NCBI RefSeq assembly: GCF_009834535.1
Contig: NC_045696.1
Coordinates: forward strand, 3,970,001-4,034,000
DNA from: Camelus ferus
Lineage: Eukaryota
Length of the DNA: 64,000 nt
Reading direction: 5' to 3'
Part shown: one piece after another, positions 21,858-64,000 of the stretch
How the letters are laid out: each line of letters starts with the position of its first letter
Numbering within the stretch: the stretch's first letter is position 1
Notes under the pieces: model-generated
The model's database searches: none
What the model was told of the DNA's origin: nothing
What the model saw: the letters and a program-made list of their open reading frames with translations, nothing else
Made by a program: the position numbers and the translations under genes

Positions 21858-21962
21858 ATGGTTTATTCTGACTCGGAAAACAAAGAATTTGATTCAGCTT
21901 CTGCATCCAGTCATGCGTCACTAAATGGAAATGATGACATGGTGGAGAAAAATCAGGAAACA
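21858..21962 (+). CDS. MX1: MX1 coding exon 1 ([35 protein letters not shown])
   Basis: Acceptor ttaag/ at 21836, AAGATGG start, ACA/gtaagt; 105 nt. Confidence 0.88.
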
Positions 21963-27818: not shown

Positions 27819-27860
<42 letters not shown>

Positions 27861-42800: not shown

Positions 42801-45017
42801 AGAAATCGCGAAGCTCAGTAGTGACTCTAACGATGTGACCAGTGCGTCAAGAGAATCCACAAACAACATGTTGAATCACAGGAGCACGAGAGAGCCGTCC
42901 TGAGTGTAGAGCGTTGTCACGTCTGGAGAATGTGGCCCTGAGTGCGGAGGCCCACTGAGGCAGCCACGGGTAAACCTGCCATCCTTGTGGGGAGGGAGGT
43001 CAGCGGTGGAGCCTGTGCTTAGCCTGCATGCTTGTCCTGGGTCAAACCCCAGTAACTCCCTTAAAAAATGTTTTTAAGTGATGTTTCAAGAATGAAGAAA
43101 GAGAGCAAAGGGCAACGAGGCCCCCCTCCCCCGCCAATCAGCCCGGAGAGCTGAGCCGGCTGCCCTCGGAGCCTGGGTCCCTGGTCCTGCCTCGGGCACC
43201 ACCGCACTTCCTCCTCCCCGTGCAGGGCCTGGCAGTGGCAGGCCCAGGTGCCGGCTGCCTTCCCACTGTCCCTCCCCCGGGGCAAGGGGGGCTGGAGGGG
43301 AGAGCTCTCTGGTGTCTCTTCTTCCAGGGGCTGCATCCATTTTCAGGGCTCCTCTCTCACCGCCCAGACCCACCCCCCCCCAAGACCCCGCCTCCAGGTG
43401 CCCTCACACTGCAGATGAGGCTTTCAACACTGAAGTTGTGCCCCTAGCACCCAGCACCCCAGCACCCCGCACTCTGGGGAAGACTGGCTCTGCCTTTCCC
43501 AAGCCGGAGCTCTTGGGGCCACTTAACCTGCCTGGCCTGACGCTCCTCACCCACAAAATGGGAGTAAGAATGACCTTCTTCCGTAGCCCTCCTACACTGC
43601 GGGTGGGAGTGCAGTTTGCTGCAGTCCTCCTGGGAAACAGTATGGACTTTCCATGAAAAAAACAAAAACAGACTTACCCTGTGCTCCAGCCATCCCACTT
43701 CTGGGCGTATATCGAGAGGGAACTCTAACTGGAAAAAATGCACGCACCCCAATGTTCACAGCAGCACTATTTACAACAGCTAAGACATGGAAGCAACCTA
43801 AATGTCCATTGAAAGATAATGGATAAAGAAATTGTGGCATATGTACACAATGGAATACTACTCAGCCATAAAAAGAATAAAATAATTCCATTTTCAGAGT
43901 CGTGGATCTAAGATTCTAAAAAAAATGCGACAACTGACTTATTTAGAAAGCAAAACAGACCCAGAGACATAGAAGACAAAATTGTGGTTATGAGGTGGGG
44001 GACGGGGAGGCAGGGATAATTGGGGAGGTCAGCATTTCCAGGTGCACACTATTATATAGAAAATAGGTAAACGCCAAAGTCGTACTGTGTAGCACAAGGA
44101 ATTATATTCAACCCCTTGTAATAGCCTATAATAAAAAGAATATGAAAAGGAATATATGTATATATATATAACTGAATCACTATGTTGTGCACCAGAAATT
44201 AACACAACATTGTAAGCAAACCATATTTCTATAAAAAAAAAAAAAGGCCTCCTTCAGAAGTTTGTACTGAACATAGAAGAAAAGGTTTAGGATGCACCTG
44301 GCATCACACATCACCCTCAGTGGTACCCAGTGAAGTCTGTGGGTCCAGATTCCTTCTGGCTGAAGGGTTTCCTCCTGGCTCTCTGGCAGCCAGTTTCTCT
44401 GAACTCCAGAATATGAAATGTATGTGATTTCCCGATTTAAATCTGGCCCCCACTTATGCCTGTGAGCTCTCTGGTAGAAAAACACTCTTCCTTGTCAGAT
44501 GGAAAGATTGTAAAAGAGAAAGGAGGCTGGAAATGAGACCTGAGAACAGAGCCCGCACTGGTCCCTGGCCCTGGGGCTAAGGGGTCTGGTCACCCGTGCG
44601 GCTCGGGCTTCCTGGGGAATTCTGACCTCCACCAGGGGCGGGAGCCCACCTTGGAGAAGTCCCACATCGGGCATAAATTGGCACCTGCTGGGGGTGGCCC
44701 TTGCAGAGGACTTATTTTCTTCCGACCGCTTGATTCATTCCATAGGGAAATGTTGTCATGTTTCTCTTTCGCCGTAGTCCAAAGTTGAGGACATTAAATT
44801 AGATCTAGAAAATGAAGCTGAGAAGCTGATCCGATTACACTTCCAAATGGAGCAGATCATCTACTGCCAGGACAAGGTGTACCGGGGTGCGCTGCAGAAG
44901 GCCAGGGAGAAGGAGGCCGAAGAAGAAAAGAACAAAAAATCAAAGCATTCTATTTCGACCCTCACTGAGGACCCCTCCATAGCTGAGGTCGTTCAGCACC
45001 TGACCGCCTACCACGAG
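21858..45017 (+). CDS. MX1: MX1 (MxA) copy A, coding exons 1-12 of 13; frameshift in exon 11, last exon missing (gap)
   Basis: Exon sizes 105/193/138/155/139/199/79/123/142/159/79(expected 77)/240. G1 GDQSSGKS, dynamin signature LPRGSGIVTR, G3 DLPG, G4 TKPD and stalk [12 protein letters not shown] are present. Confidence 0.93.
22890..23090. mobile_element. MER5-like DNA transposon remnant
   Basis: cagagtgtggcccccagacctgcagcatcag...ccctccaggggattct...ctaaagtttgag; second copy at ~46865-47065. Confidence 0.6.
24115..24290. mobile_element. MER20-like DNA transposon remnant
   Basis: ggttctcagctggggg..ttttgcccc..tggcaacgtctggaggcatttt..ttgccacaact; copy at ~48100-48275. Confidence 0.6.
24395..26075 (-). 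mobile_element. Old LINE-1 (L1M) fragments, antisense, in MX1 intron
   Basis: T-rich L1 reverse-strand text (tttgcaaatatgttcttcc..ctgtggcttgtctttt..; ttgcattgtttcc..gaatctgctg..); copy at ~48380-50057. Confidence 0.7.
26138..26330 (+). CDS. MX1: MX1 coding exon 2 (P-loop GDQSSGKS)
   Basis: cag/GGG ... G/gtaag, 193 nt. Confidence 0.95.
27406..27543 (+). CDS. MX1: MX1 coding exon 3 ([13 protein letters not shown]...)
   Basis: ctag/GT ... G/gtaag, 138 nt. Confidence 0.93.
27780..27925 (+). mobile_element. L1 3' terminus with (GT)17 microsatellite
   Basis: aaaaggaatata...(gt)n...tgaatca..gctatacaccagaaattaacacattgtaaattgactat; the GT tract is 27824-27857. Confidence 0.75.
28635..29060. mobile_element. 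MLT1-like MaLR LTR remnant
   Basis: tatcagttagc..ttgctgtgtaa...tattagccaaagaaagtcacgtg..gagccca. Confidence 0.5.
30046..30200 (+). CDS. MX1: MX1 coding exon 4 ([15 protein letters not shown])
   Basis: ccag/CC ... CAG/gtgag, 155 nt. Confidence 0.95.
30832..30970 (+). CDS. MX1: MX1 coding exon 5 ([10 protein letters not shown])
   Basis: acag/ATC ... G/gtaag, 139 nt. Confidence 0.95.
32568..32766 (+). CDS. MX1: MX1 coding exon 6 ([11 protein letters not shown])
   Basis: gcag/GA ... AG/gtac, 199 nt. Confidence 0.95.
33800..34350 (+). mobile_element. L1M 3' end
   Basis: gttcgcagcagcgttcttcacaatagc...aaaaggaaggaaattctgacac...gatggtcgcacaacaatgtaa...ggttaaatggtg; a related older piece lies at ~31250-31660. 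Confidence 0.8.
34989..35067 (+). CDS. MX1: MX1 coding exon 7 ([18 protein letters not shown])
   Basis: gcag/G ... TGT/gtaag, 79 nt. Confidence 0.93.
36544..36666 (+). CDS. MX1: MX1 coding exon 8 ([16 protein letters not shown])
   Basis: tcag/AAA ... GAG/gtgag, 123 nt. Confidence 0.93.
37036..37177 (+). CDS. MX1: MX1 coding exon 9 ([17 protein letters not shown])
   Basis: acag/AAA ... G/gtgag, 142 nt. Confidence 0.93.
38275..39810 (+). mobile_element. L1M 3' region interrupted by an MLT1 LTR (~39080-39445)
   Basis: L1 text (aaactcttagaagaaaacatagg...gaaatgcaaaatc...tcaactgatgaatggataagcaaa) resumes at ~39445 after the MLT1-type insert (ctagggctgtcgta..caacagaagtttaattt..ggaggctggacgtccaagatcaag); copy at ~62235-63780. 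Confidence 0.75.
40495..40653 (+). CDS. MX1: MX1 coding exon 10 ([15 protein letters not shown])
   Basis: gtag/GC ... G/gtgag, 159 nt. Confidence 0.93.
40720..41490. mobile_element. MER21-like LTR remnant
   Basis: cagctggg...gaccagctgtaaatcagag...ccttgggcttgat..ttctagaacagctcacag..tttaccagtttattataaagga. Confidence 0.55.
42612..42690 (+). CDS. MX1: MX1 coding exon 11 ([19 protein letters not shown]), two apparent 1-nt insertions
   Basis: ccag/AT ... AAG/gtaaa. It is 79 nt versus 77 for the paralogous MX2 exon, with an in-frame TAA at 42656-42658 as assembled. Confidence 0.88.
43590..44245 (+). mobile_element. Lineage-specific L1 3' end with poly(A) tail
   Basis: tgttcacagcagcactatttacaacagc...ggaatactactcagccataaaaaga...actgtgtagcacaagg..aactgaatcactatg..accagaaattaacacaacattgtaa + A-tract. 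Confidence 0.85.
44778..45017 (+). CDS. MX1: MX1 coding exon 12 containing loop L4
   Basis: gtag/TCC ... GAG/gtgag, 240 nt; SKVEDIK...YCQDKVY...QHLTAYHE. Confidence 0.93.
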
Positions 45018-45299
45018 GTGAGTCGGCGAGTGTCTGAGAAAGGTGCTGTTCGCCTGTTCCCTTGTGTGTGAATGCCTCTCCCTTCATTCCTGTTGTCTGT
45101 GCAAGGGGACCACCAGCTCCACGGTTCAGTCCTTGGTGAACCTCCGAGGAGCAGCTCCATCGGATAGATGAGAAGCCTGTGACTCGTGTCTGGTTTTGCT
45201 GGCTGTGTGTCCTGGCCAAGTTGCTTAACCTCTCTGAGCCTCAGCTTTCTTTCTTCTCTGTAAAACGGTGTCTCCGCTCAGGGTTCTTGTGGATCGTCA

Positions 45300-45399
45300 N
45301 NNNNNNNNNNNNNNNNNNNNNNNNNNNNNNNNNNNNNNNNNNNNNNNNNNNNNNNNNNNNNNNNNNNNNNNNNNNNNNNNNNNNNNNNNNNNNNNNNNN
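45300..45399. other. Assembly gap (100 N)
   Basis: Run of 100 N where the last MX1 exon would be expected. Confidence 1.
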
Positions 45400-48300
45400 T
45401 AAATCATCATAATATTTAGAATCCGTCGTCTCCATTGGAAAGAGCTTTATAATACTTTTATTTTTACATGTAAATTTTAAAATGCATCAGAGATTTCATC
45501 CTTTGCCACAATTTACATTTATGGTGAAAACTCTTTTGACGTACAGTGTAGAATCGTGACGGGACCTGCAGAACTTCAAAACCTCTTTTTGGGGTCTGGA
45601 AGCATACATGCCCTTGAGGAGAGTCGAGCCAGGAGAGAGCATTTGCCCTCATCTGACATTTGGCTCCGTGGAATTGTCCTGTCGTTGGTTTATCAGTCAG
45701 CAGGGAATGAATGGGCCCCGCTGTGTCCCAGCGTGTCCCCTGGGGGTTTGGCTCCGTGACTGAAGGTACCTGTCTTCTGAGTTGTGCTGATGCTCACCTA
45801 CTTGATTTTAAGCTGATCCAGTAAAGGAAGAAGATGGTTTATTCTGACTCGGAAAACAAAGAATTTGATTCAGCTTCTGCATCCAGTCATGCGTCACTAA
45901 ATGGAAATGATGACATGGTGGAGAAAAATCAGGAAACAGTAAGTTGATGCCTGAAAACCACTAAGTGCGTGGACACGAGCTGTGTCCATCTGAGGGCTGC
46001 CGGTGCGGACAGCGACGCCCTGGCCGCCCGGGGCTGCCTGCTGCCACATCTCTCCTGGGCAGGATGTGGGTGCAAATGCTCTCAAGGAACTCATGCTGCT
46101 TGGGCCCTTCTTGCAGCCAGATGTAGCCAGTGTTTTGCTTTAGCTGATGCTGGTTGGGATTGGATTTTGTTCTGGGAGAGCAGGCAGGGTGCTGAATGGC
46201 TGGTGTAGGAATTGGTCCCGCGCAATGGGTCCAAGGAGCCCTGTGTTCTCACATGCATACGTCGTGGTTCAGTCTCCAGCGCAAAACTCTGAGGTGTCCC
46301 TGTGACCCCCCCTCACCGTGAAGCCACCTGATAGCTTTCTTCCCAAAATCACGTCACATGTTTGCGGGAAGCAAACTTGGCCTCCGGAATCAGTGCAACC
46401 CGAATCTGACCCGAGTGCTGCCACTTTCCTCTTTATGAGCTTGGGCGGTTATTTCTCCCTTTAGACGCCTGGCTTTTCATCTCTAAAGTGAGGAAGATTT
46501 TAGGATTTACTTTGTGTGGCTTTTGGAGGACTCGGGTACAGGCTGGGCGCTTAGAAAGAGCTCTGTATCTTGCTGTCATGTGTTGTAAAGCTGTAGCTCT
46601 TCAGCCCTTTCTAGGTGACTCCATGTTCTTAACCAGTGTTTAACACTATTTTAAACTATATTAGAAAGCACAGTGAAGGGCGTAGAAAACTGAGAAGGAC
46701 CCGCACTTTGCGCCCCCCGGTGTAACTGTCGTCTCCTGCCTGGCCGTGCCGGGCCCGGGGCAGTCGGAACCGCCCGGCTCACACTCACGCGTCTGGATGT
46801 AGCTGGGCCTCCTCCAGCAGCTAGAGCAGGCGTGTCCTGGGCGCAGCAGCCCCACTTCTAGGTGCAGAGCTTGGTCCTCAGAGTGTGGCCCCCAGACCTG
46901 CAGCATCAGAGTCCCCGGGGAAGCTCAGAGTGTAAATGAGCACCCTCACACATTCTGCCCCCGGACCTAGTGAACTAGACATTTCCGAGGCGGGGCCCGG
47001 CATCTATGCTTTACCAGACCCTCCAGGGGATTCTCCTTTGTGCTAAAGTTTGAGCAGCACTTTGCCATGTTCATACAGCGTCGAGTATGCACAAACCCGG
47101 AGTCCCCCCCGGGGGAGTGCGTGCACAGGTCGGCCCGCCCGTGCGGCAGGGTTCCCAGGAGCAGCGCGCGGACTCAGCTGGCGTCCAGGCGACCAGGGTG
47201 GCTGAGTCTAACCACCAACGCTGAACCCTAGAAGCACGTCCCGGAAGAGGTATACTCTGTGATCCCACTTATATGAGGTTCCCCAGCAGGCAACCGTGAG
47301 CCACGTACTGCTCAGCGAAGGATGGACTGGGGGTGAGAGCTGCGCTGAGGAGCAGGAAGGAGGTTCTCACAAGCCCTAGAGCAGAGCGCCCCCTGGGGGT
47401 GAAGGGGATTCAGGAGGAAGGGGCCTGGGGAGGGGAGGTGGAGAGTCCTCAGCGCTGGGAATGCCGGCTTTCTCAAGCCAGCTGGCTGGTACTGCATTTT
47501 TGCCAATTCTCGCTCATGTGTTATAAACTCTTGTGAATGGGCGGTACAGAAGTGAAAAGGAAAGGCCCCCACGAGGAGGACTGGGACTGAGGCCGCTGGC
47601 GAGTGTCAAGTTTCAGCCAGGTTTCTGCGGAGAGGCCATGGGCGGCTGGGCCCCAGTCCTTTCTTAAGTGTTGTTACTGAGAACAGTTGTAGAGGGCACT
47701 TGCTACAAATGGCAAAGAGGACGGTATTCACGTGTATTGCAATAGGGGAGAAAGACTGAGCTCACCGTGGATACCAGGAAAGTTGGGGGTGGGGGGCAGT
47801 GCGCAGGGTGGGGAGGGGAAGTGGGGGTGGGGGAAGGGGAGAGTGGGGGTGGGGGAGAGTGGGTAGGGGGAGGGACCTGATTAGCTCGCAGGGGTGACGG
47901 GGTGCTGGATGAGCTGGCTTAGCTCCATTCCTGGCTATGTGTGGGTGCAGCAGGCCAAGGTGGGGCCTAGTGGAGAGGAAGGCTCACAGGAGCCCCACTG
48001 AAGTTCACTCAAGGAGCCCCTGTCGGGGGTGCCCCCTTCTCTGCTGAGTGTCCTCAGCATTCCCTGCAGATGAGATGGGGCGCTCAGACATTCCGTAAGG
48101 AGGGGGTTCTCAGCTGGGGGCACTTTTGCCCCTTGGAGCACCTGGCAACGTCTGGAGGCATTTTCGTTGCCACAACTCGGAGTGAGCGGTGGACAGCGGC
48201 CAGGCGCGATGCCAGCCCTGCTGCAAGGCCCGGGACGGCCCCACCGCAGACACGTCTCTGGTCCGAATGTTAGTGCCTTCTCACCATGATCCGAAGGGCT

Positions 48301-51300
48301 GTTCTAGCAAAAGTGAATTAGATTACAGCAAACACACAAAAATTGAAGTTGGAAAGAAAGAGGCCAATGTCAAAATGATTGTTTCACATTTTCTTTTCAA
48401 CTGAGGGTGTTTGTTTGCTTGTTGCTGAGTTGTGAGTGTTGTCACGTGTGCAGAGCCTTTGTCAGATGCAGGCTTTGCAAATATGTTCTTCCTGACTGTG
48501 GCTTGTCTTTCATTTGCTTAACAGCGTCTTTTGAAGATCATACATTTTCAATTGTGGTAAAGGCCAATTTACCAGGTGGTTCTTTTATGGGTTGTACTTT
48601 GGGGCCATGTATAAGAAATCTTTGCCCAACCCAGAGTCAGAAAGATTTTTCTCCTGTGTTTTATTCTGGAAGTTCTGTAGGTTTAAGTTTTGCATTTCGG
48701 TCTATGATCTGTTTTGAGTTATTTTTCGTGTATGATGTAAAACACAGATTCACGGTCATTTTTTCTGCATATAGATAGTCAGTTACCCCAGTGCCATGAG
48801 TGGAAGGGATTACCTTTGTTCCGCAGCATTGCCCTTGCACTGTGGTCAAAACCCAGTTGTTCACGTACGTATCAGTTCATTCCTGGAACGTGTGCTCTGT
48901 TCCGTTGATCTCTTTCTCCATTTTTGCACCAGCCTCACAGTGTTTTGGTTGCTACAGCGTTGTAGTAATTATGGGAATCAGGTAGTTTGAGCCTCCAGCT
49001 GTGTTCTTCCTTTTCAGTGTCATGTGCCGTTGTAGGCGTCTGTAGACTTTTTATGTTTACCTTGCTTGTTAATATGATTAGACTTGGAAAGATCACTTTG
49101 CTTTTTGTTTTCCACATATATTTGTCTTTTACTTAATTTCTTCTATCCTCTTTTGAATTAATCCTGCCTTCTTTTGAATTAATCAAGTTTTTGTGAGTGT
49201 GTGTGTGTGATTCCATCTTACCTCCCTTATGGACCTACTGAGTGTAATGGTGTCAGGGAACACATTGTGCGTCTTTAACATATCAAATGTGCCTTCTGAT
49301 GCTGCTCTGCTTCTTCACGTGCAACGTGAGAACCTTACATTAGCGTGCCTCCATTTCTGTCCTCTCACCGTTCATGCTGCTTTTATCATGACAGTTAATT
49401 TTACTAATATATTAAACCCCACTGTATATTGTCATTACTTTTGTTCAAATAGTGAAATGTCTTTTGAAGATATTTAAGTAATAAAAAAGTACATTTGTCA
49501 CTGCTTGTGATGTAAGTTTTTTGGTGTGGATTCAGATTTTACTCAACGGCCCTTTCCCTCCAGTTGACCATCCGTGTTGCCGTTCCCTGTAGGGCAGGTC
49601 CGCTGATGACGTAGTCACTGACCCGTGTGCGTCCAAAGCAGTGCTTCGTCACTTTCCTCCCGGGGAGATCTTTTTGCTCGGTGGGGAATCCTAGGTTGAT
49701 GGTTTTCGTCAGCACTTTAAAAACGCTGTGCCACTGTCTTCCGACTTGCATTGTTTCCAGCGCGGAATCTGCTGTGAATCTCACTTGTGCGCCTCTGCGT
49801 GTAACCTGTCATGTTCTGGCTGCTTCACACACTTTCCCTTTATCTCTGGCTTTGAGCAATTTGTCGGTCATGTGCCCCGATGTCACTTACTTTACGTTTT
49901 TTATGCTTCTGGTTCGTTGAGCTTTTTGGATCTTCAGGTCAATAATCTTCACCAGGCTTGGGTAAATTCTAGCTGTTATTTCTTCAAACAGTTATTTCTG
50001 TTTCAGTCCCACTCTCTTTGGGGAACCCGAATCACCTGTATATTTGAGGCTGATTGAATTGTCCCTCTCTGGAACATGACCTGCAGATATGACAAAAGTC
50101 TCCACCTGTCCTCCCCCAGGGCCCGAGAACAACCTGTACAGCCAGTACGAGGAGAAGATTCGGCCGTGCATCGACCCGTCGACTCCCTGCGGGCCCTGGG
50201 CGTGGAGCAGGACCTGGCCCTGCCCGCCATCGCCGTCATCGGGGACCAGAGCTCGGGCAAGAGCTCCGTGCTGGAGGCGCTGTCGGGGGCGCCCTTCCCC
50301 GAGGCAGCGGTAAGCCCTTGGCCTCGTGTTCCTCCGCCGAGGCTGCCGCGACAGCAACCTCAGAGGGCGTGGAAGCGCGAGCGGCATAGGCTCAGCGCTC
50401 TGCCTGTTCTGACCCGCGCCGCGCTGCGGCGGGCGCTCCTTCGCTCTTCCGCCCTTCGGCCTGTCCTCTCCGCGGCTCACAGAGAGCCGGCCTCCTTGTG
50501 GCTTCACGTGGCCTCTTCTCTGCGTGCAGCGTGTCTGGCTTCTCGTCCTCTTTTATAAGGATGCCAGCATGTTGCTAGGGCCCCACTTTAGGACCTCGTT
50601 TAATGTTAATTGACTCTTTAAGGAGAGACGCCCATCTCCAAGTACAGTCGCGCTGGGCGTGCGGGCTTCTACTGGGACGTTGTGGGGGATGGAATTCAGG
50701 CAGTAACCCCCCTCATCGCAGAGTGTGGACTGTCTGCAACCTGCAGGGTGGAGGGCTGTTGAATGTATGTGGGACCCCAGCCTCGAATGCTCTGCATGTT
50801 GCTGCCTTTCCCTTGAGCCCCTTCCCAGGAGGTGACCCTCCGTCCGGGGGTAAAGGTTAGTGCTCTGGTTAGGGTGCTGCTTGAGCTACGAGGCCAAGGA
50901 TCAGGGAGGCCTCAGGGATGAAGGCCGACCTGGCTGGGTCTTGAAACACAGGTCAGATGTGAAGGCGGGTGGGACCTGGAGTTGTTAGCAAAGGGACGTT
51001 GTGAGGTGGCCTGGTGAGGGGAGTGGGCCTTCCCGATAGGAGCGGGCTGTGTGCGCCTGGGTGGTGGACGATGTCTGCAGACGTTTGGGTTTCCCACTGC
51101 AGTTTGCCTCCTGAGCTGATGGAGACCGCGGGGTGGGGGAGCAGGAGGTCTAGCGTAGCGGCTTCATGCCTCAGTGAGCCAAACGCCACCTGAAATGCCC
51201 AGTCAAGATGCGCAATCTGGAGCCCCTCCAGAAAGAGCGCGGCGGCTGTCAGAGGGTGCGAGCAGCAGGTGTGCAGTTCAGCGGTCCTCCCCAGATGACT

Positions 51301-51796
51301 GTACGGAACTCGGAGAGCCACTGATGTCAGGCCGCCGTACAGGACCGTGGAAGAATATAGATCTGAACGGGAGCGACCTCCTAGGTATTGTTACGAGATT
51401 TCCTCTGGTGCTGAACTGAAAAAACTTGTGAACGAAGATGGATGGAGAGGCAAAGTCAGTTTCCGGGACTACGAGGCCGAGATTTCAGATCCTTTGCAAG
51501 TGGAAAAGGAAGTCAATCAAGGTAAGTGTCCCGTGTTCATCACTTATTTGAACATCTGGTCAACTGGGTGACCTGGGTGGGATCGCCCATCGGTGTTCCC
51601 ACTCTCTCCTTTCTGGGCTTGTCCTGGTCCTTGGGGCACCCTTTCCTTTCCTTCCTCCTTTATATGAGGCCCCCAGCTCCCTTGTATGTTCTCTTCTTTT
51701 ACTTTCATTGTGACCAGTGTTTTGACAGCGACCTGTATTCAATACTTTGTAATGGCTTCTACTGGAAAATAATAGGAAAAGGAATATACATATATA

Positions 51797-51838
<42 letters not shown>

Positions 51839-54800
51839 AATGAATCAGTACGCTATACACCAGAAATTAACACATTGTAAATTGACTATAATTCAATTTT
51901 TAATATTGGGGGAAAAATACCAGTGCCTTGGGCAGAATCTGATCTCAGTGATTTATTGCTTAGTATTTATGTAAGCATCTGAACATAATGTCAGGTTTTG
52001 AAGCTTGTGTTTCTAATACGGAGGACTTCTCCTGTATTCAAGGGCTCCCCGACTGCACAGATATGATGGAAGAGGCATCAGGGTGCGGGGTGGGGGAATC
52101 CCCTTTCCTGTTAACTTGGTAAAAAGGCATTCCAAAATGCTGACTGCATCCTTGCTGAATCCCGCTCAGCACTGGAGGTTCTTTTCCCCCAGGAGCGTGA
52201 TGTGAGCATTTGCACAGTCCTAGCTGCAGCAGATTTATGGCAGCTCCCAGTAAATGCAAACCACGGGGATTAGTTTACCAGTCTGAAACACCTGAAAGGA
52301 GAGCAGGTCCAGCAGATAGGGACAAAACAATGATGCACTTAGCTGCTGCTACGTGTAAGTGAGATGAGCACACAACTTTTCCTTACTGACTTTAATTTCT
52401 TCCTAGCATGTCACATAATTCAATTCCAGTCATTTGAGAAATGACATTAACTGATATCCAGCAGTAGGAAAGTGTGGGTCTGACTCATGTAAAGATGGAA
52501 GCACTGATGATCTTTTATTGGCTGTTCTGCAAAATTTAAATAAAGATATAATCAAATGTTACTGTGTGTTTTGGGGATTACATTGCCTGCCTGGTGCAGA
52601 AAAGTCGAAATCACAGTGCGTATCAGTTAGCCCTTGCTGTGTAAGAAAACAAGCTCAAAGCCTTATGGCTTAGAAGGGTACATTTCTTGTGATTCAGAGG
52701 GTCAGCCGGGCAGTTCTTTCCCTCTGGGCTATCTTGGCTGCGGCCAGCACTCTAGGACCGCCTCAGGCACTTATCCCAAGGCTGGGCTGGAATAACCAGG
52801 ACTTGTATCCCTGTGGTCTGTTACCCTTCAGGAGGCTGGGCGGGGCTTTGTTACGTGGTGGTGGAGCAGTTCCAAGCAGCGAGCCCAATGTGTAAGCACC
52901 TGTGAATGTCTACTAGAATATGTTCTGTAATGTCCTATTAGCCAAAGAAAGTCACGTGATTGAGCCCAATTTGAAGGAGCAAACTCCCTGCATGGGACAA
53001 GTAGCAGTCACCCTGTGAAGCAGCAAGCTTCCCCGATGGGAGGGAATATGACACTATTTGTGCAAGCGAGTTACTAACACAGGGGTTTAAAGAATGTTCC
53101 AGTTTTACTTCTCGCTCTTGTAGAAGTCTGAAGGTGGGCAGACCACAGGTGGTGTGGGGGTTCCAGGGTCAGGAACCCAGACTCCCATCTGTTCTCTCTG
53201 TTCTGTGTAGCCTGCAGTCCCAAGGCTGCCTCGTGATTCAGTCAGCAAGTCTCCATTCGGGTCAGCTGGACATTGGCAATGGCACATCGTATCTTAAGCA
53301 CATTTTCTGGAGGTTGCACGTAGTGTCTTCACATCTGTCCCACAAGCCCCCCTGAATCTCATGACCACGTCTCCGGGAAATAGATTTGAGGGAAAAACTC
53401 AGCAGATTGGCCGCACATACCACTGTTGTTATTGTTTCCATTCTGCGTCCTTGACTGCTAGGAATCATACCAAAAATACGTTCTCAGTGTAGACAGTGGT
53501 AATGTAGTGTTAGCTAACGATCTGACGAACTGGATTCATATCTTGAAATGTCATTACTCAGGAGGACGTGGCAAAATGAAATCCCTCAAGGGACTCCCAG
53601 CAGCTAACGTTCATCTTGCCCGAGCCAAGCACATTCCCCTCTGTAATATTCGACGTCATGTTTCAGGAACCACCATGTATTTTTATTTGCTTTAATTTTA
53701 CTTGGTTGTTAAGTTCCTACTGCATCCATGGGGGCAGTTAGGTGTGACAGCAGAACTTACCGGCTCTGCTCAGGTTAGGACTGGTGCCGCTGGGTGTCAT
53801 CTTTAGAGATGTTTTCACTGGATCCCTCTGCAGACAATTCTAGCCAATGGCAGTGACAAAACCGAGTTATCTTTTGAAGCCCCGTTTTGCTCTAGAAAAG
53901 GGAATCTGCTCCAAACAGGCCTTATCCGTGAATCACAGCGGGTGGAGGTTGCTTTCAGAGGATTCGCTGTAATGAGAGATTCCATCCTAAGCTCTATTCA
54001 GATTTTCTTGTTTGCTCTTCTCCAGCCCAGATTGCCATCGCTGGGGAAGGAGTGGGAATCAGCCATGAGCTGATTACTCTGGAGGTCAGCTCGCCTAACG
54101 TCCCGGATCTAACCCTGATAGATCTTCCCGGCATCACCAGGGTGGCCGTGGGCAATCAGCCACACGACATTGAATACCAGGTGAGACTTCAAGCTGCATC
54201 CTGGCCTGGGCACTCACGCATCAGTCAGATCAGGACTGAGTTTGAAGAGCGGGTGACAGGGGTTGTCATAGGGAAACCTACGAAGTTTGTGATGGTCGAA
54301 ATCTACTCCACCAGGATAGGAGGAAGCTTCTGTGGAAAGAGGGAAATAGGTAAAGTTGGAAGTGCATTTTGTGGTTTGTTTTTGCTGACAGTGACATGTT
54401 GTCACATACCTAAACTGGCACTTTTCAGGAAGGGGGTTCATGTGGGAAGGGACAGCATGGGCACAACTATAATGCTGCTTCTGACTCAGGGAACCTCATT
54501 CTGTGGAGTAAAGATTTCGGGAAATGCAAGCAGCTCTTCTGGCATCTTGTTTTTCATCGTGATCATCAGCTTTGAGGTCTGAGGAGATAATTAATGAGCT
54601 AAAACCTCACAGTTTTCCCTGACCTCAGAGCTCTCTTTCAGCCACAGAGAGCTCAGTTTCTCCGGCTTGGAAAGTGCCACCAGGCTTGTGTCGCGGACTC
54701 ATTTCTCTGTAGTTGCTTCTTTGGGGGAAATACCTCTGGGACAGGGAGGGCCTGAAGCTAGTACGAGGGAAGGACCTGTCTTAACTCTCATACCCTCTCA

Positions 54801-57800
54801 TTTTCCAACAGATCAAGTCTCTCATCAGGAAGTACATCCAGAGGCAGGAGACGATCAACCTGGTGGTGGTCCCCTGTAACGTGGACATCGCCACCACCGA
54901 GGCCCTGCGCATGGCTCAGGAGGTGGACCCCGATGGGGACAGGACCATAGGTAAGAAGAGGGAAGAGTCTAAACATGGTAGGCGGCTCGACAGCAGAAAA
55001 GCATCCGTTGAATGCAGTGGTTGTTTCTTGGCCCCCAGGCAGGTGGGGGACTGCACCCAGCAGGTGAGGAGCACTTGAGAACCCACTGAGGCCAGATGAA
55101 ACGGGCCACATCTGACTCCTGTTGGCCGTGTGTTGGCTCGTGGTCCTTGTCTAGCTGCTTATACTAGGCCTGGTGGGCTCGGGGGGCAGAGCGAAATCAG
55201 GAAGCAGTTATATCCGTTGACAAGGCATTTGAAGCACTACAGCCCGAGTGTCCCGGACAGCTGAAAGGACACAGGAAGTGTGACGTGTCCATGCGCTGCT
55301 AGAGCCGTCAGCCTTAAAAAGGAAGGACGTTCTGACACGTGCGCCAGTGTGCATGGACCTTGAAGACATTAGGCTCAACGAAATGAGCCAGTGCGAGCGC
55401 ACAGATCCGTGGGACCCACTTTCATGGCGGATGGAGAGGAGTCAGGTTCAAAGAGACACAGTCAAGTGCGGGGATCGGGCGGGGGAGGAGGCAGCTGCTG
55501 GTGGAGACAGAGTCTCAGCTGTGGGAGCTGGAAGGTTTGGAGGCGGACAGGAGAGCGCGCTGCACCGCAGTGCGAGAAAGGCTTAGCGCCCTGAGCTGCT
55601 CACCTAAAAGCGGTTAGAATTGTCAATTTTATGTTTAAAACCTTGCATTTGGCTGTGAACAGTGGAGGACCTGAGTCCAGGGGCTGAAACAAATGGAGAT
55701 TTATCCTCACACAGAAGAAGTAACCTGGGCAGAGGCCTCTCCCCTCTCTGCCCGTGGCGGTGAGCCTTAAGGACCGGTCTCTCCTCCACCCTCAGCCGTG
55801 GTCCTGACTCCTCCCTCGTCCTGCCGCGCACCAGGCCTGGGGCGAGAGTCTCTCGGCCAGGGCAGCAGCTGCCAGTGGACCCGGGAAACCTGAGGGTTCG
55901 ATCTGTCCTGGCCTCAGTAGCATTCAGCCTGGGCCGTCACCCAGGCCCAAAACCTGGAGGGGTCCACGCATGCTGCAAGGCTGTGCCACTGCCGTCTCAT
56001 GGTACCCAACGTCTGAGCACGGGGCTCTGCGTTTTCCTTCTGCAGGGGGCCCCACAAATGATGTAGCTGGTCCTGGCCCGACCTGTGTTTCTCAGAATGT
56101 GCGCCAGGCCCCATCTGCATCAGAAATCACTGGAGAAATTTTAGAAACCCAAGTCCCTGGCTCCCACTGAACGTCTAAGTCTGATTCCTGGGGAGGGCCT
56201 GAGAATCTGCATTACAGGGCTCACCTGAAGGCGGTTCAGCTGCGCAGGGAAGTGAGAGCAGTATCGTAGAGAGTGGCCTCTTCCACTGGTCGGAAGGGAC
56301 TCAGAAAGGCCAGGAGATGCTGCCGTGTCTCTGGGTGATGTGTGCATGGGGAGAACCCACAGCCAGGTGTCCTCACAGCAGCAGGGACTCGCACCTTTGT
56401 CCTGCTGGCCCCATCGTCTGCCCTCCAGCAAGGGTGGGAGGAATCCGGGGACCAGGGGACCGTCCTCCCCAGGGCCGGGAGCTCTGCTCACTTCTCACTG
56501 TGGGAAGCTTTGGGCGCTCTCTAATCGGAGGTCTCTGGCCTGCAGGAATCTTGACAAAGCCTGATCTTGTGGACAAGGGCACTGAAGACAAGGTGGTGGA
56601 CGTGGTACGAAACCTCATCTTCCACCTGAAGAAGGGCTACATGATTGTTAAGTGCCGGGGCCAGCAGGACATCCAGGCCCGGCTGAGCCTGGCCAAGGCC
56701 CTGCAGAGGGAGCAGGCCTTCTTTGAGGACCACACACATTTCAGGTACGCACGGCGGTGTCTTCCTGAGGTTAAACCGAAATCACAGACCTCTGTCCTTA
56801 GGGGGAAAGATGGACGCCGTCCAAAAGCAGATACTGAGCGTAGTCGTGTGTGTTTGTTCCTGGACAATGACCTCGGAATTTGCTTCAAATTCTCAAGGAA
56901 GAATTGACAACGTGTTGCAAAAGGCAAATTTAAAATTCAAAATAAGAAAGAGACTTTCTGCCGTAATTTAAATAGTATAGTTCTCAAACCAGACTATAAA
57001 TGTAGGTGCACAGAATAGAAAAAGGTGGAAAACCCAGAAATTGACTCAGAATTGTATATTTGATCTGGGATAAATGTGGCATTTCAAAGCCCTGGGCTAC
57101 ATCAGTTTATCCATCAGTGGCTTTGAGATCATTGTGTAATATTTGGGAAAAATTTATTGTGCCCCTACTTAGTATGGGATACCAAAATAAATATCAATTG
57201 AAGTTTAAAATTAAATACAAGAAAGACACCTTAAGCATCCCAGAGGAAAACAGAGGTGGAGAGTTTATAATCCCATATCTTGCGAACTCTATTGCCGAAA
57301 GCAAAATTCTTTAAAAAGGAAAAAAGACTGTTAAATTGGTTAGATTTGAAATAATGAGTAGATGTTGAGTTGATGGGAAAGGAGGGGTGTGGGTCTTCAC
57401 CTCTGCTACTGGGAGCATGTGCTGTGGTCACATGCGAGCCAGTCTGAGCAGGTGTATCCCCAAGGCTGAGTTCTACTTCTGGGAATTCTACCCAGGAAAA
57501 TACAGGGATGTGTGCAGTCCTGTAGGCTAAGGTTGTTCGGCACAGATTTCTTTTTAATCATGAAAATTTGGAATCTAAACGTTGGAAATCGTGGGGTTTG
57601 TATACACGAACCAGAGTAAGAGACTGAAGACTTTGCAAGCATTCGAGAGCTGTGTCAATCAGATGCCAACACAAAGGTGCATATAGATGCTGAGAACAAA
57701 GGGACACAGTCACTGAGAGCCCTTGTGTGCAGACATGCACTCGTGGGTGGAGACCCACGTGCTTTGTCACCGCATCACACTGAACTCCCCCAGAAGCCTG

Positions 57801-60800
57801 CAGAGACACGTGCTTCAGAAGAGACACCTGTGCACTCGTGTTCGCAGCAGCGTTCTTCACAATAGCTACCGCGTAGAAACCACCTGCGTGTCCGCTGACA
57901 GATGCCTGGAGAAACAAAATGTGGTCCATCCAGACAGTGGACTCGGCCTGAAAAAGGAAGGAAATTCTGACACAGGCTGTGACACAGATGAACCTGGGGG
58001 ACAGTGTGCTCAGTGAAATAAGCCAGTCACCAAAACACAAGCCCTGGATGATTCCATCACACGAGGTCCCTGGAGGAGTCAGCGTCACAGAGACAGAGAG
58101 TGGAAGGATGGTTCCCCGGGTCTGGGGGCTGGAGGTGGGGAGCTGCTGCTGATGGGTCAGAGTTTCAGTTGGGGAAGAAGATTTGGTTCTGGAGGTGGGT
58201 GGCGGCGATGGTCGCACAACAATGTAATAGCACTTAATGCCCCGAGTGTGCACTGACATGTGGTTAAATGCTGGGTTTTATGTTATGTATGTTTTTACAC
58301 AGTTTACAGAATGGACAGGGGTGGAAACTGAAAGGGAGGTGTCCGTGTACTACCACAAATCTGCCTGAAAATTCACGCCTCCTGGCTTGAATCCTTCATC
58401 CTCAAAAGCCCTTAAAAATGTAGGAAGCCCTGTAACCGCTCAGCCGGTGAACACAGATTTGAAAGCGTGAGAGGAGGGCTTGGCTTCCTCCCTCCCAGCG
58501 CCCGAGGTCTCAGTTCTCGTCCTGGGGAAGGTGCGCCCCCTCGTTCAGAGTGCACCCCACACCTGTGTAAACACACGTCAGTACATTTTCATGAAGCCCG
58601 GGGCCGAGATGCGTCGTGTACGCAGAAGGGCGTGCACGTTATGAACACACAGCTAGAGGACACTGTATCTTTATAAAGACCGGTTCTCTAGGCCGATGTC
58701 CTGAGTCAGAGTCAACGTCTCAGCTGGGCGGGATCATTCTATACCATTTTCGAAATACCCAGCATCACTAAAATTCAGCCCTGGCTCCGTGCGCCCCAGT
58801 TCTGAGCACTTCCTGGGCACCGGCAGCAGGACAGCGCACCCCGTGGGGAGGACCTGGAGTTGCCGTGGCTTCTCCCGGCAGCAGGGAGCAGGCTTGCGTC
58901 GTCTGGCCGGACCCAGGTGGACGTGTTCGCTGTCTTCTCTTGCAGGGATCTTCTGGAGGAAGGGAGGGCCACGGTCCCCCGCCTGGCGGAGAAACTGACC
59001 GCAGAGCTCATCACACACATCTGTGTAAGCGCACGCAGAGCGGCCCGTTCTCTGAATAGAGTCCCGCAGGCGCGAAGCTGGGCCGCGCTGGTCACTCACT
59101 GCGACCTCCTGGGGGCCTTAGTGAGGCGCAGGGCACCCCGATGCGGCGTGGGCTCCCCAGGTGGTGCGGACGTTGCCCGTCAGAGGCCCACACGCTGAGT
59201 GGGATGCTGATGGTGCGGACGCACTTGGCCTGGGTGAAAACTAGACTCTCCGAGCACGGCACCACCCGCTCCTTTCTCACTGCCAACCGCTGTCATGGCG
59301 TCGGGGTCGCTGTGACGGTCGTGTGGGCCACTTCTGAGATTTCTCTGTGGTCCTTTTCAAATCTGCCTGGACAGAGTCTCTTGCTTTTTCACATTTACAA
59401 ACCTTTTATACGATGTCTTTGCTCGTATTTCTGTCTTTGTTTTCACGGGATGATTCCAACGTCGGCAGCCGGGTTCTCCCAGCCGTCCCCAAGGGACTTG
59501 GCTGGAGTTGGGACTGTGAGCCTCTCTTTCCTGGAACCTGGTCTGAGGGTGTGTGTGGGGGCCTAGGTTCAAAAGGGCTTCTGCAGGGAACACCGTGTTT
59601 GTTTCTGCCAGGCCCCGGGGAGGCCCTTTAGTGTTTCTGAATCACGTTAGATTTTCAGCCTGAGTTTGGGGACACTTTAGGGAGTGTGACGTTGAAAGTG
59701 TAGATGTGTTTGAGTGCTGGCTTGTGGTTACAGATTCCCAGGGGAGACTTTCTCTCCCCTCCTCCCAGCCCCGGCGTTCAGGCCAGGAGTGGGGCCGGAC
59801 GGCAGGGGTGTTCCTTGCTGACCGTTACAGTGAGAGCGGAGCTGGCTGGGGTCCCGGCTGCATGCAGGACTCCCCACCTTCAGCAGCCCACTGGGCATTT
59901 AGCCCTTCCCCCGGCACCCTGGCACCTGAGTCACTGGGCACCCACTGTCACCTGGCCTTGGAGTTCTGTCTCTGACCTGCCCCCGCCAGCTCACTGACAC
60001 ATTTAAAGGGGTGCTTGTGACCCTCAGGCCAGCAGTTTGAGGTGTTTGCGGTTGGCGGGCAAGCCAGCAGGTGCAGTCACCATGTGATGAGAGACAGAAG
60101 TCCCTGATAACTTTTAATCGGTTAACAACAACCTACAAATGTTGAATTTCAAATTATTCCGATGGCCACTTTTTCAGGACCCACTAGACACACGGGTTTT
60201 GCTAGTCCCCCTGAGGACAGTTTATGCCACAGGCTCCCAGAGGGACGTGGTCCTTGTGTTGCTGTCACAGGACCCGTAGGCACGCAGCGTGGCCCTGAGG
60301 CTGCTTCCACAGGAGCGGGCAGGGGGGAGGCCTGATGGGCAGCAGTTCCTGCTCCCACGCCCCCCTCCTTTGGGAACATCTGCCTTCTAGAGGGGCCAGG
60401 AATGGAGCGCCCTGGGCCACTGTCCGGCACCTGCAGGAGAACCCCGGGCCTCTGCTCATCCCGCTCACATCTGTGTCTTCCCGTTGTTTTCTGTTCTCAG
60501 AAATCCCTGCCCCTGTTAGAAAATCAGATAAAGGAGAGTCACCAGAAAATATCAGAGGAGTTACAGAAGTGTGGCTCCGACATCCCGGAAGACAAAAGTG
60601 GAAAAATGTTCCTTCTGATAGAGGTGAGTGTTGCCAGGGGACCAAGCTGCAGACTCGTGCGTCACTGTGCGGAAAGGGGTCGTGTTCCTCGGGCACGTCT
60701 GTCTTCACTTCCCCAGAGCTAATCCAGGTCACTCTGCCCCTTTGGCACCGAAAAGGGGCTGGGCTTAGGGGACCATCCCACTGCTGCCATTGGCTCCTCA

Positions 60801-63800
60801 TCAGGGGGACCCTGAAGGCAGGGAGGGCGGGAGGGGGTCATCTGCTGCCAAAGCCTCTTCTCTCCCCTCTGCCCACGAACCCCTCAGGCAGGAAAGAGGG
60901 ACTCGCCCTCCGCTTCATGCATGCGACCCCCAGACCACCTTGCTCGTATCTGGAGTATCTGCCCTTATCCATGTGTTTTTCTTCTTGACAGAAAATTGAT
61001 GCGTTTAATAAGGAGATCACAGTTTTAATTCAAGGGGAGGAATGCGTGGGGGAGCACAAGTCTCGGCTGTTTACCAGAATCCGAAGTGAGTTCAGCAAAT
61101 GGAGTGCTGTGATCGAAAAACATTTCCAAAAAGGTGAGCCCAGGCAACAAGGGAGACCTGGCAAGGGGGTCGAGCCCAGGGCGGGGTGGGGGAGATGCCG
61201 TTGGTGAAGGCGGCCACGGTAAGGGGTTAGTAGTGGGAAAGTCTCGTTTGCCGTTTCATATCCCTGAGTCTGGCCCGGAAGCCTCTAGTACCGATTTCAA
61301 AGGACACCCAGAGAGAAAACGCAGCCTCCCTGGCCCGTCTCCTTGGAGACGCTCAGAAGAGCAGCCCTCCGTCCGCAGAGAGCCCGTGGGCCTGGCGCGT
61401 GTGTGAGGCTCTTTGCGTTGCCAGTCGGGCTGCCCCTGAAACGGCCCCGATTCCCTCTCCCTTAACCTACCGAGGCCTTGAAGCCTGAGGCGTTTGGTGA
61501 TAGATTTCACAGCCGCAGTGATGAAAGGCACAGAGAACAGCACGTGAGGTACCAGCCTCGCATCATCAAAGCCTCCAGAGTCTGAAAAAGGTAGACACTG
61601 TGATCTGAAGTTTACTTTTAATATTTCAAGACGCCTGAAGCAAATCATAGATCAGCCACTGAGGACAATATCAAGTAACTTTGCTTTTATTCAAACAACT
61701 TGGGGTGGCAGGTGTGTTCCTTATTGATTTCGGCTGACCCCAGGTTCAGATTGGCAGGCCTCCTGGGCTCTGAGTCAGGAACATGGGAAGATAAATCATG
61801 CAAGTTTCTACATAAAGCAGAGGTGACACCTTTGTTCCTTGCCAGAGGGCAGGGAGGGTAAGGAACAGTGCCCTTGAGGGAGAAAAGTCCGGAAAGCTCA
61901 TTTGCGGGCAGTCACTTGCCCCATTTCCGTGGTCCCTGCGCTGTTTGCAGGAGCTAAATCCACCCGCGGAGAGAGGGCGGCTCGCTGCTGCGTGCTGTGC
62001 CCTCTCGTCAGCCGGGGGACCCCGTTCAAGGACGACGACAGCCCTTGACCTCCAGCGGTCCCCCGTGCACTGTCCAGCCAGGTTTTTAATGGTGTAAGTG
62101 TGTAGGGCAGGCGGCCTGTGAGCTAGTGTCTCAGGTTTTTAGATGCTAAACCCCTCCCAGCAACGATCAGTTACGTATCACTGGGCACCCAAATGCAAGA
62201 GAATTAACTGAAACCCCTAACTCACCCTCGAGGCAAAAGATAAACTCAAAATGGGTCAAAAACCAACAAGTATGGCTGAGACTGTAAAACTCTTAGAAGA
62301 AAACATAGGATTAGACCTTCATGAGCAGGATTCGGCAGTAGTTCTCTTTTCTTCAGACGGGACCCCTAAAACAGGAGCAGCAAAAAAAAAAAAAAAAAAA
62401 AAAGATCATTTGGATTCATCTGAATAGGAACCATTTGTGCATCAGAGAGCGCTAGCACGGAAGTGGAAAGACACCCACAGGTTGGGAGGGAACATTTACA
62501 AATTTTACATCTGACAAGTGTCATGTATTCAGAGTATATAAAAAGCTCTACAGCTCAAGCACAAAAAACAAACAATCCAGTTTAAGGATGATCAAAGGAT
62601 TGGTGTAGACATCCTTCCAAACAAGAAGATGTGCCTGTGGCTAATAAGACCATGACAAGGTGCTCAAGCTCATTATCCAGCAGAGAAATGCAAAATCAAC
62701 CCACAGCGGGACGCCACCTCACACTTGCTCGGATGCCTGTCAGCAAAACGTTGACAGGGAGTGTTGACAAGAGTCTAGAGACGGCAGAACCCCCGCACCG
62801 CTGGAGGAAGAGTAATGGTGCAGCTGCTCTGGGAAGCTTTCCAGCAGTTCCTCCGGACGCTCAGCATGTGCTGCCACATGACCAGCGGTTCCATTCGTAG
62901 GTACATCCTCCAGAGAATGGACGTGTGTGTTCACATAAATGCGTTCTGAATGTCCTTGTCAGCACTGTCCATAATGGCCAAGAAATGGAAACCACCCATA
63001 TGTACATCAACTGATGAATGGATAAGCAAATTGTGGTCTGCTGGTACGTATCCATTTGCTAGGGCTGTCGTACCGAGGGTCTTAAGCAACAGAAGTTTAA
63101 TTTCTCATAATGCTGGAGGCTGGACGTCCAAGATCAAGTGTCAACCAGTTCGGGTTCTTCTGAGGCCTCCTGTCTTGGCTTGCCGGTGGCGGCCCTCTCC
63201 CACTGTCCTCACGTGGTCACCCTTCTGGGTGTGTCTGTGTCCTGATCTCCTGCTGTTAGGACCAGTGTTACCGGTGAGGGCTCCCCTCCTGGTCTCATTT
63301 CACCTTCACTGCCTCTTTAAAGGCCCTGTGTCCCAGTACCATCCCATTCTGAGGCACCAGGAGATAGGTCTTCAACAAACGAGTTCTGGGGAGACAGAGT
63401 TCAGCTCTCAGTGGAACATTATTCACCCCTAGAAAGGCACGAGGGACTGGCCCGCGCTACACCTCGGATGAACCTGGAGTCTGTCAGGCCGAGTGAAAGC
63501 GGTCAGGCACAAAAAGCTGCATGCTGCATGGTTGCACTTATATGGACGTCCAGATGAGGCGAATCCATAGACCTGGAAAGCTGATTAGTGGTTTCCAGGG
63601 GCTGGGGAGAGAGGGAAACGGGGAGGGACTGCTGGTCGGTACAGGGTTCCATCGCGGGATGGAGTCTTGGGGGATTAGACGGTCTCGATGGTTGCACCAC
63701 TTTGTGACTATGCTGAAAACCGTACACCTTAATAGTGTGAATTTTATGGTTTGTGTATTGACCTCAGTTTTTTAAAAATGCCTGTGAGAAAGTATCTCCT

Positions 63801-64000
63801 GAGCAAAAGAGGGTAACTAGGTTACCATCCTTGATTTAGCAAAGAAAAGAAACCAGAGCCCTGCTGAATTTGCACCCCCTGTGGGGTTTCTCCATACTCT
63901 CGTCTGCTGAGGGGGAAAAGAACTCCAGATGTATAAAGGAAAACCTAAATGTTTTACAGAGTAAACAGTGGCGCCGCCTCGGGTCAGTGCTCTAGCTCTA
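45400..64000 (+). repeat. Direct duplicate of 21423-~40034 (>=18.6 kb, continues off window)
   Basis: Colinear near-identity at an offset of ~23.96-23.98 kb, including introns and repeats. Confidence 0.97.
45834..61133 (+). CDS. MX1: MX1 copy B (paralog or alternate haplotype), coding exons 1-9; frameshifts in exons 2-3 as assembled
   Basis: Exons 45834-45938, 50120-50309 (190, -3), 51385-51521 (137, -1), 54026-54180, 54812-54950, 56546-56744, 58946-59024, 60501-60623 and 60992-61133. Confidence 0.85.

What the first reader, a model, noticed from the sequence alone, without database searches (positions are those of the whole stretch)
55400..58800. Mosaic divergence between MX1 copies: near-identical blocks alternate with several-percent-diverged blocks
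Seen: 52040-54950 appears identical to copy A by eye, and even the (GT)17 tract has the same length. In contrast, 55915-56275 differs from 31935-32297 at about 20 substitutions in ~360 bp (eye count). Further dense substitutions occur at 56745-57610, 58200-58310 and 60160-61250, while the enclosed exon 6 (TKPD) is identical. These are substitutions rather than the 1-nt indels typical of read error. Inference: this exceeds ordinary heterozygosity and suggests older paralogs partly homogenised by gene conversion, a deeply diverged (balanced or introgressed) haplotype, or cross-polishing of two paralogs. Gene conversion among Mx genes is established in mammals.
Basis: partly seen in the sequence, partly recalled or inferred. 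Interest (0 to 1): 0.7.

Follow-up and report, generated by a model that had tools for sequence, protein, structure and literature searches.

The report
Camel MX1 twin genes, patchwork similarity
Camels appear to carry two neighbouring copies of the antiviral gene MX1 that keep copying pieces of sequence onto each other, so most of the gene stays nearly identical while some introns and the virus-recognising loop have stayed different for millions of years.

Summary
The mosaic is real: copy B (45400-64000+) differs from copy A at 98 substitutions in 3,425 aligned bases of 55400-58830 (5-9% in the densest blocks), but at none in 51421-55399. The window is camel DNA (one exon is 100% identical to a Camelus ferus Mx1 record). 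B starts at the first base after a 100-N gap, the usual layout of a false duplication. However, B's coding changes K368 and V388 match a separate dromedary 'Mx1-like' record. That record has the same longest-contig length as dromedary Mx1 and a different L4 specificity loop. Fourteen large public runs also hold more B-type words than copy A alone could give. The N-terminal parts group by species and the L4 region by copy. Best reading (0.72): old tandem MX1 paralogs, probably older than the camel-alpaca split, homogenised in patches by gene conversion, with L4 escaping. A trans-species balanced haplotype assembled twice is not excluded (0.15), and polishing may exaggerate the exact identity. 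Read depth and per-animal genotypes were not obtained. Mx gene conversion is known; nine paper searches showed no description of this camel pair.

The parts
21423..45299 (+). MX1 copy A ('A-type'), coding exons 1-12 at 21858-21962, 26138-26330, 27406-27543, 30046-30200, 30832-30970, 32568-32766, 34989-35067, 36544-36666, 37036-37177, 40495-40653, 42612-42690, 44778-45017; last exon lost at the gap
   Evidence: exon 44778-45017 is 100% identical to C. ferus Mx1 record P0003 and 98% to dromedary and Bactrian Mx1
45300..45399 (.). 100-N scaffold gap separating the copies; B starts at the next base, so the true junction and spacer are not seen
45400..64000 (+). MX1 copy B ('B-type', Mx1-like), coding exons 1-9 in the window (45834-45938, 50119-50309, 51385-51521, 54026-54180, 54812-54950, 56546-56744, 58946-59024, 60501-60623, 60992-61133); runs off the window before the L4 exon
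50101..51420 (+). Low-quality stretch of B: 36 substitutions (24 transversions), 24 indel events, including 1-nt deletions in coding exons 2 and 3; most likely consensus error rather than pseudogenisation (inferred)
   Evidence: dromedary B-type record P0011 is intact, 661 aa
51421..55399 (+). Homogenised block: 0 substitutions in 3,977 bp, holding coding exons 4 and 5; both window copies read T163 where both dromedary copies read S163
55915..56275 (+). Diverged intron block, 22 substitutions in 361 bp
56350..56749 (+). 400-bp identical tract around coding exon 6, flanked by 5-6% divergence; both copies carry I268, otherwise seen only in the two C. ferus records: candidate recent conversion tract
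56745..57630 (+). Diverged intron block, 45 substitutions in 880 bp
58200..58320 (+). Diverged intron block, 11 substitutions in 121 bp plus a 23-bp tandem-unit difference
59095..60164 (+). 1,070-bp identical tract
60160..61255 (+). Intermediate block (27 in 1,096 bp) holding B's two clean coding changes, E368K (60594) and A388V (61023), both shared with dromedary Mx1-like P0011
44778..45017 (+). L4-loop exon of copy A (A-type loop, two residues shorter than B-type); carries L520, otherwise found only in B-type records: candidate B-to-A conversion

Best explanation
A and B are two real tandem MX1 (MxA-type) paralogs of camels. They split at least before dromedary and wild camel separated, and probably before camels and alpacas did (about 16 Ma). 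Since then, non-allelic gene conversion has repeatedly overwritten tracts of a few hundred bases to several kb between them. Recently converted tracts are near-identical, older ones intermediate (about 2.5%), and unconverted intron blocks keep the full age (about 6%). The 5' GTPase-coding half is homogenised, while the L4 target-recognition loop has stayed different. Shown: the mosaic, the match of B alleles to dromedary Mx1-like, and the discordant grouping of protein segments. Inferred: that window B continues into a B-type L4 exon beyond 64000, that both copies are in every animal, that conversion (not consensus mixing) made the longest 0% blocks, and that selection keeps L4 apart. The assembler broke inside the repeat, hence the gap and the indel errors at both contig ends.
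For: (1) B's only clean coding differences, K368 and V388, are both in dromedary Mx1-like P0011. P0011 and dromedary Mx1 P0004 (A-type) list the same longest-contig length, 122,687,160, so a second species has both types, apparently on one scaffold. (2) P0004 and P0011 are identical over residues 1-367 and differ at 19 alignment positions, 15 of them in 554-575. (3) Lineage-specific states are shared by both copies: Q592 in both dromedary records only; I268 in window A, window B and both C. ferus records only; T163 in window A, B, the C. ferus records and Bactrian but neither dromedary copy; V56 and V506 in all Camelus records against I in alpaca, pig, whale and human. (4) Segment trees: residues 37-367 group by species, residues 504-567 group P0010 with P0011 across species (92/89), and 504-582 group Camelus A-type with alpaca to the exclusion of P0011 (88/87). 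(5) V574/V575 is shared by Camelus A-type and both alpaca records, while B-type keeps the I/F of pig, whale and human, placing the A/B split before the camel-alpaca split. The densest blocks give K2P 0.060, i.e. 13.6 My at 2.2e-9/yr (rate from PMC7305198), near 16.3 Ma (PMC12337305). (6) Alpaca also has two 659-aa Mx1 records with one contig length. (7) 14 of 24 listed runs (all the large ones; 13 samples, 5 studies, 2 organism labels) hold 0.82-0.89 of sampled words of 55400-61300, where copy A alone shares 0.62 of all 31-mers, so B's variants are real sequence.
Against: B starts exactly at a gap and A ends at it, with error-rich ends: the layout of heterotype false duplications (PMC9516828 passages). 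The dromedary and alpaca pairs could be the same artefact; I saw only proteins and contig lengths, not those assemblies. Only an A-type record was retrieved for Bactrian camel, and no B-type L4 for Bactrian or alpaca among the 120 best of 239 hits. P0010 has K368 but A388, so it is not a clean B. P0003 reads through into the window's own intron and is not independent of the window. 0 substitutions in 8,378 bp is below even allelic diversity (Poisson P 0.003 to 0.0006; linkage makes this rough), which points to some consensus mixing. The run search ranks by B-type words, so it cannot show that B is fixed or that A co-occurs, and one run may be the window's source. No tree fork inside the camelids reached the 95/80 support mark. 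No read depth was obtained.
Confidence: 0.72

Rival explanations
1. One MX1 locus with two very old haplotypes kept by balancing selection across camel species. Heterozygous animals were assembled with both haplotypes side by side (heterotype false duplication), and the mosaic comes from allelic recombination and conversion.
For: Gap exactly between the copies and error-rich contig ends. Only one type was retrieved for Bactrian (P0005, A-type) and one per C. ferus record. Co-expressed L4 specialists can give broader restriction, a basis for heterozygote advantage (PMC12047444 passages).
Against: It needs the same artefact in dromedary and alpaca assemblies, and the alpaca pair differs at only 2 residues. 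It needs alleles kept for about 14-16 My through the camel bottlenecks. None of the 14 large runs approaches the ~0.96 share a B/B animal could reach (best 0.89), which is weak because the ceiling of this index for a single-copy region was not measured.
Confidence: 0.15
2. The paralogs are real but the long identical blocks are assembly artefacts: contig B's 5' 10 kb was built or polished with A-derived reads, so the true copies differ more evenly and little recent conversion occurred.
For: 0 substitutions in 8,378 bp; poor consensus at 50101-51420 of B; B begins at a contig start.
Against: Identical tracts of 400, 1,070, 651 and 1,427 bp sit between B-specific clusters. Dromedary P0004 and P0011 are identical over residues 1-367, share Camelus-derived V56, and share dromedary-only Q592. 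Polishing can only merge copies that are already near-identical (inference).
Confidence: 0.1
3. B is a haplotype introgressed from dromedary into a two-humped camel.
For: Gene flow between the species is documented (PMC12337305); B shares K368 and V388 with a dromedary record.
Against: Dromedary holds both types. Window B has T163 and I268, not the dromedary S163 and V268. About 6% divergence implies an age beyond the 4.4-7.3 My species split.
Confidence: 0.02
4. The differences are sequencing or consensus errors.
For: True for 50101-51420 and probably the scattered 1-nt deletions.
Against: In 55400-61255 the 126 substitutions are transition- and CpG-rich (87 transitions, 45 at CpG), two match another species' protein, and B-type words are in 14 runs.
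Confidence: 0.01

Closest known systems
Rodent Mx1/Mx2 (two MxA-like genes scrambled by recurrent gene conversion; PMC4687636, passages read)
   Same: Adjacent MxA-type genes, conversion tracts reaching into introns, paralogs grouping by species in GTPase segments, specificity regions kept apart.
   Different: In rodents the second MxA-like gene replaced MxB by complete conversion. Here an MX2 3' half lies upstream (3953-9731) and the second MX1 looks like an added tandem copy. The paper's main text has 0 mentions of camel or alpaca.
MxA-MxB localized conversion of the BSE/GTPase exon in other eutherians (PMC4687636)
   Same: Homogenisation of GTPase-coding sequence.
   Different: That exchange is between the ancient MX1 and MX2 and limited to about one exon. 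Here it is between two MX1 copies over most of the gene; window MX2 is only about 75% identical to them.
Database annotation 'Mx1-like' in dromedary (P0011) and two alpaca Mx1 records (P0006, P0007); CNV listing of MX1/MX2 in South American camelids (bioRxiv 10.1101/2025.08.28.672513, passages read)
   Same: The second copy is already present as automated annotation, and MX1 copy-number variation is listed for camelids.
   Different: In the passages seen there is no description of paralog age, conversion mosaic or L4 divergence.
Heterotype false duplication (PMC9516828, passages read)
   Same: Adjacent copies separated by a gap, error-rich ends, '-like' annotation.
   Different: Divergence about 30 times camel diversity over the interval, and B alleles matched in another species' second record.
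Escape from concerted evolution of a duplicated CEACAM1 paralog in ruminants (PMC7042247, search listing only)
   Same: Immune paralogs under concerted evolution with part escaping it.
   Different: Different family; not read beyond the listing.

Membership tests
MX1 (MxA-type dynamin-like GTPase) | Sequence and exon order orthologous to mammalian MX1 rather than MX2 | tested here: met
   Exons 94-100% identical to camelid Mx1 records where intact; window MX2 exons only about 75% at DNA level
MX1 (MxA-type dynamin-like GTPase) | Intact reading frame of copy B | tested here: inconclusive
   1-nt deletions in B exons 2 and 3 lie in an error-rich stretch; dromedary B-type record is intact; no reads laid
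True tandem paralogs | Both types present in another species' assembly | tested here: met
   Dromedary P0004 and P0011 with the same longest-contig length; protein-level only
True tandem paralogs | Two-fold read depth and all animals carrying both types | tested here: inconclusive
   B-type words in 14 large runs; depth and per-animal A/B status not obtained
True tandem paralogs | Gapless junction between the copies | not testable with these tools
   100-N gap at 45300-45399; no whole genome held
Concerted evolution by gene conversion | Non-random clustering of differences into identical and diverged tracts | tested here: met
   0 of 10,000 permutations reach the observed statistics
Concerted evolution by gene conversion | Lineage-specific derived states shared by both copies; discordant segment trees | tested here: met
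   Q592, I268, T163, V56, V506, L520 patterns; segment trees, few sites and support below the 95/80 mark
Concerted evolution by gene conversion | DNA-level tract mapping and polarity with outgroup loci (GENECONV/RDP) | not testable with these tools
   No mammalian genomic loci could be fetched; only proteins
Heterotype false duplication | Gap between copies with error-rich ends | tested here: met
Heterotype false duplication | Divergence within the allelic range of the species | tested here: not met
   98 differences against about 3 expected
Heterotype false duplication | Haploid-level read depth on each copy | not tested
   No reads were laid

The most novel reading that the evidence does not exclude
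Old World camels have kept two MxA-type genes for about 16 My as a 'fixed heterozygote'. Conversion keeps the GTPase and oligomer-forming parts compatible, while selection keeps two different L4 loops: B-type has Trp at or next to the position of human F561, and A-type is two residues shorter with no aromatic residue there. Co-assembled oligomers would cover different viruses, a natural case of the specialist-pair strategy shown experimentally for human MxA. In alpaca the B-type loop was overwritten or lost.
Probability: 0.4. Interest if true: 0.7.

Novelty: new member of a known kind. Interest (0 to 1): 0.5.

Why it matters
Gene conversion among Mx genes is known, so the mechanism is not new. 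But a 2025 paper (PMC12047444, passages) notes that mammals show no rampant duplication and diversification of MxA paralogs, asks whether expansion has a hidden cost, and shows that two L4 specialists together widen restriction. A camel MX1 pair that is identical in its GTPase half and differs mainly in L4 would be a natural test of that idea, in a livestock species studied as a coronavirus reservoir. Practically, camel MX1 expression assays and SNP calls probably merge two genes, and the frameshifted B copy in this assembly should not be read as a pseudogene or purged as a haplotig without checking. Several other mammals also have more than one Mx1-like record (e.g. elephant, lemming), which lowers the surprise.

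Tried and rejected
No whole genome is held, so the B-type L4 exon beyond 64000 and the spacer could not be read. Cluster membership of the camelid proteins (accessions, further members) was not available. No reads were laid, so depth, per-animal alleles, expression of B and the status of B's frameshifts remain open. Conversion from MX2 as the source of B's differences was rejected (about 75% identity). The position of B's Trp opposite human F561 holds in the multiple alignment, but the first of two equally scoring pairwise alignments, the only one printed, puts it one column earlier, so it is alignment-dependent. Dating used the densest blocks, which biases it upward; the whole interval gives 6.6 My, and halving the rate doubles all ages. 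P0010 was left out of the 504-582 tree because its model repeats part of that exon; P0002 and P0008 were left out of the site table and trees as irregular models. Two look-ups of earlier findings returned nothing. Paper searches for a description of the camel pair showed none in the listings seen; two searches were for background. The library lacks most subscription papers, and the CNV preprint's supplement was not seen.
Full report
Observation. Self-comparison shows one long repeat, 21423-40034 against 45400-64000, at 98.5%, with 179 substitutions and 46 indel events. None of 10,000 permutations matched the clustering. In 55400-61255 the 126 substitutions are transition- and CpG-rich (87 and 45), as real mutations are. 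A separate stretch of B, 50101-51420, has 24 indel events and mostly transversions and looks like poor consensus.

Anatomy. The window holds the 3' half of MX2 (exons 3953-9731), MX1 copy A (12 coding exons, 21858-45017), a 100-N gap (45300-45399) and copy B, which starts at the first base after the gap. A lacks its last exon, and B runs out of the window after coding exon 9. The exon at 44778-45017 is 100% identical to a Camelus ferus Mx1 record and 98% to dromedary and Bactrian Mx1. That C. ferus record, P0003, ends by reading into the window's own intron, so it is not independent evidence. The gap and the error-rich ends are what Ko et al. describe for false duplications (PMC9516828, passages), so that was the reading to beat.

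Evidence from other camelids. Outside the error-rich stretch, B differs from A at three coding bases, giving E368K and A388V. Both residues are in dromedary 'Mx1-like' P0011, and K368 is also in another C. ferus record, P0010. P0011 and dromedary Mx1 P0004 list the same longest-contig length. They are identical over residues 1-367 and differ at 19 alignment positions, 15 of them in 554-575, the L4 loop and the helix after it (L4 placed by alignment to human MxA, numbering recalled). Alpaca has two 659-aa Mx1 records with one contig length, both with the A-type loop and differing at two residues. A search with the B-type loop found it only in P0010 and P0011 among the 120 best of 239 hits; no Bactrian or alpaca B-type was seen, which counts against B being fixed everywhere.

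Signs of conversion. Site patterns are shared across copies within a lineage: Q592 only in the two dromedary records; I268 only in window A, window B and the C. ferus records; T163 in both window copies, the C. ferus records and Bactrian but neither dromedary copy; V56 and V506 in all Camelus records against I in alpaca and outgroups. L520, otherwise B-type, is in window A. I268 sits in a 400-bp identical tract flanked by 5-6% divergence. Trees of protein segments group residues 37-367 by species and residues 504-567 by copy (P0010 with P0011, 92/89), but the sites are few and no camelid-internal fork reached the tool's support mark.

Age. A-type V574/V575 is shared with alpaca while B-type keeps the outgroup I/F, so the two types probably split before camels and alpacas did (about 16.3 Ma, PMC12337305 passage). 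The densest blocks give K2P 0.060, or 13.6 My at 2.2e-9 per year (1.1e-8 per generation and 5 years from PMC7305198). This is biased upward by block choice and doubles at half the rate. Camel diversity predicts about 3 differences in 55400-58830 against 98 seen.

Population evidence. Copy A alone shares 62% of the 31-mers of 55400-61300. All 14 large runs among 24 listed hold 82-89% of the 609 sampled words (13 samples, 5 studies, 2 organism labels), i.e. 53-71% of the B-specific words. B's variants are therefore real and widespread. The list is ranked by B-type content and one run may be the window's source, so it does not show fixation. No reads were laid, so depth and per-animal genotype are open.

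How it most likely works. A tandem duplication made two MX1 genes, and non-allelic gene conversion has since overwritten tracts between them at different times. That yields 0%, about 2.5% and about 6% blocks, keeps the GTPase half identical, and leaves L4 distinct (0.72). The mosaic and the protein patterns are shown; continuity of window B into a B-type L4, presence in all animals and selection on L4 are inferred. Zero substitutions in 8,378 bp is lower than even allelic diversity predicts, so consensus mixing probably adds to the exact identity; as the sole cause it gets 0.10. A trans-species balanced haplotype assembled twice gets 0.15, dromedary introgression 0.02, and error 0.01.

Comparison with what is known. 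It works like rodent Mx1/Mx2 concerted evolution (PMC4687636, passages; no mention of camel or alpaca in its main text), but concerns an added MX1 copy beside MX2. The second copy exists in databases as automated annotation, and MX1/MX2 are listed among South American camelid CNVs (bioRxiv 10.1101/2025.08.28.672513, passages). Seven searches aimed at a description of the pair showed none in their listings. Geiger et al. (PMC12047444, abstract and passages) show that L4 sets specificity and that two specialists together broaden restriction, and they note the lack of rampant MxA duplication in mammals. B-type has Trp at or next to the human F561 position while A-type has a gap there (alignment-dependent).

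Verdict. Observation confirmed; most likely real camel MX1 paralogs under patchy gene conversion with a divergent specificity loop. New member of a known kind, interest 0.5.

Noticed in passing
window 2074-9731: Only the 3' half of MX2 is present after the first gap (first exon about 3953). Two dromedary records cover the same half only: P0145 (333 aa, no GTPase domain; its first residues MPASE match window sequence near 2800) and P0002, in which A-type MX1 3' exons precede this MX2 half. The duplicated unit may be 'MX2 3' half + MX1', or Old World camel MX2 may be 5'-truncated; no full-length Camelus MX2 was listed among 25 hits, though it may sit in the 10-member alpaca cluster P0146.
   Followed up: partly
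window 1814-1973 and 13853-14012: The last 160 bp before the first gap match an intergenic stretch between MX2 and MX1 at 97.5%. It resembles an old MER5-type repeat (recalled), for which such identity is unexpected; it may be a second copy of the duplicated unit's spacer or a contig-end artefact.
   Followed up: partly
window 658-1650: Endogenous retroviral remnant: an env transmembrane-like reading frame (658-1338) followed by an LTR-like stretch (identification recalled from motifs, not searched).
   Followed up: no
window 42612-42690: Coding exon 11 of copy A appears to carry extra bases in short homopolymer runs relative to the reading of other camelid records, which explains the 'low quality' flag of P0003; probably consensus error near the contig end.
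   Followed up: partly
window 50176, 50289, 51400, 51413: 1-nt deletions and one substitution in coding exons 2-3 of copy B would annotate it as a pseudogene; they lie in the error-rich stretch.
   Followed up: partly
protein records P0006, P0007 (alpaca): Two alpaca Mx1 records with one contig length differ at only two residues (R230S, T490A) and both have the A-type L4: either conversion overwrote the B-type loop or alpaca has its own recent duplication.
   Followed up: partly
window 34287-34334 vs 58267: A 23-bp unit is doubled in A and absent at the aligned position in B.
   Followed up: no
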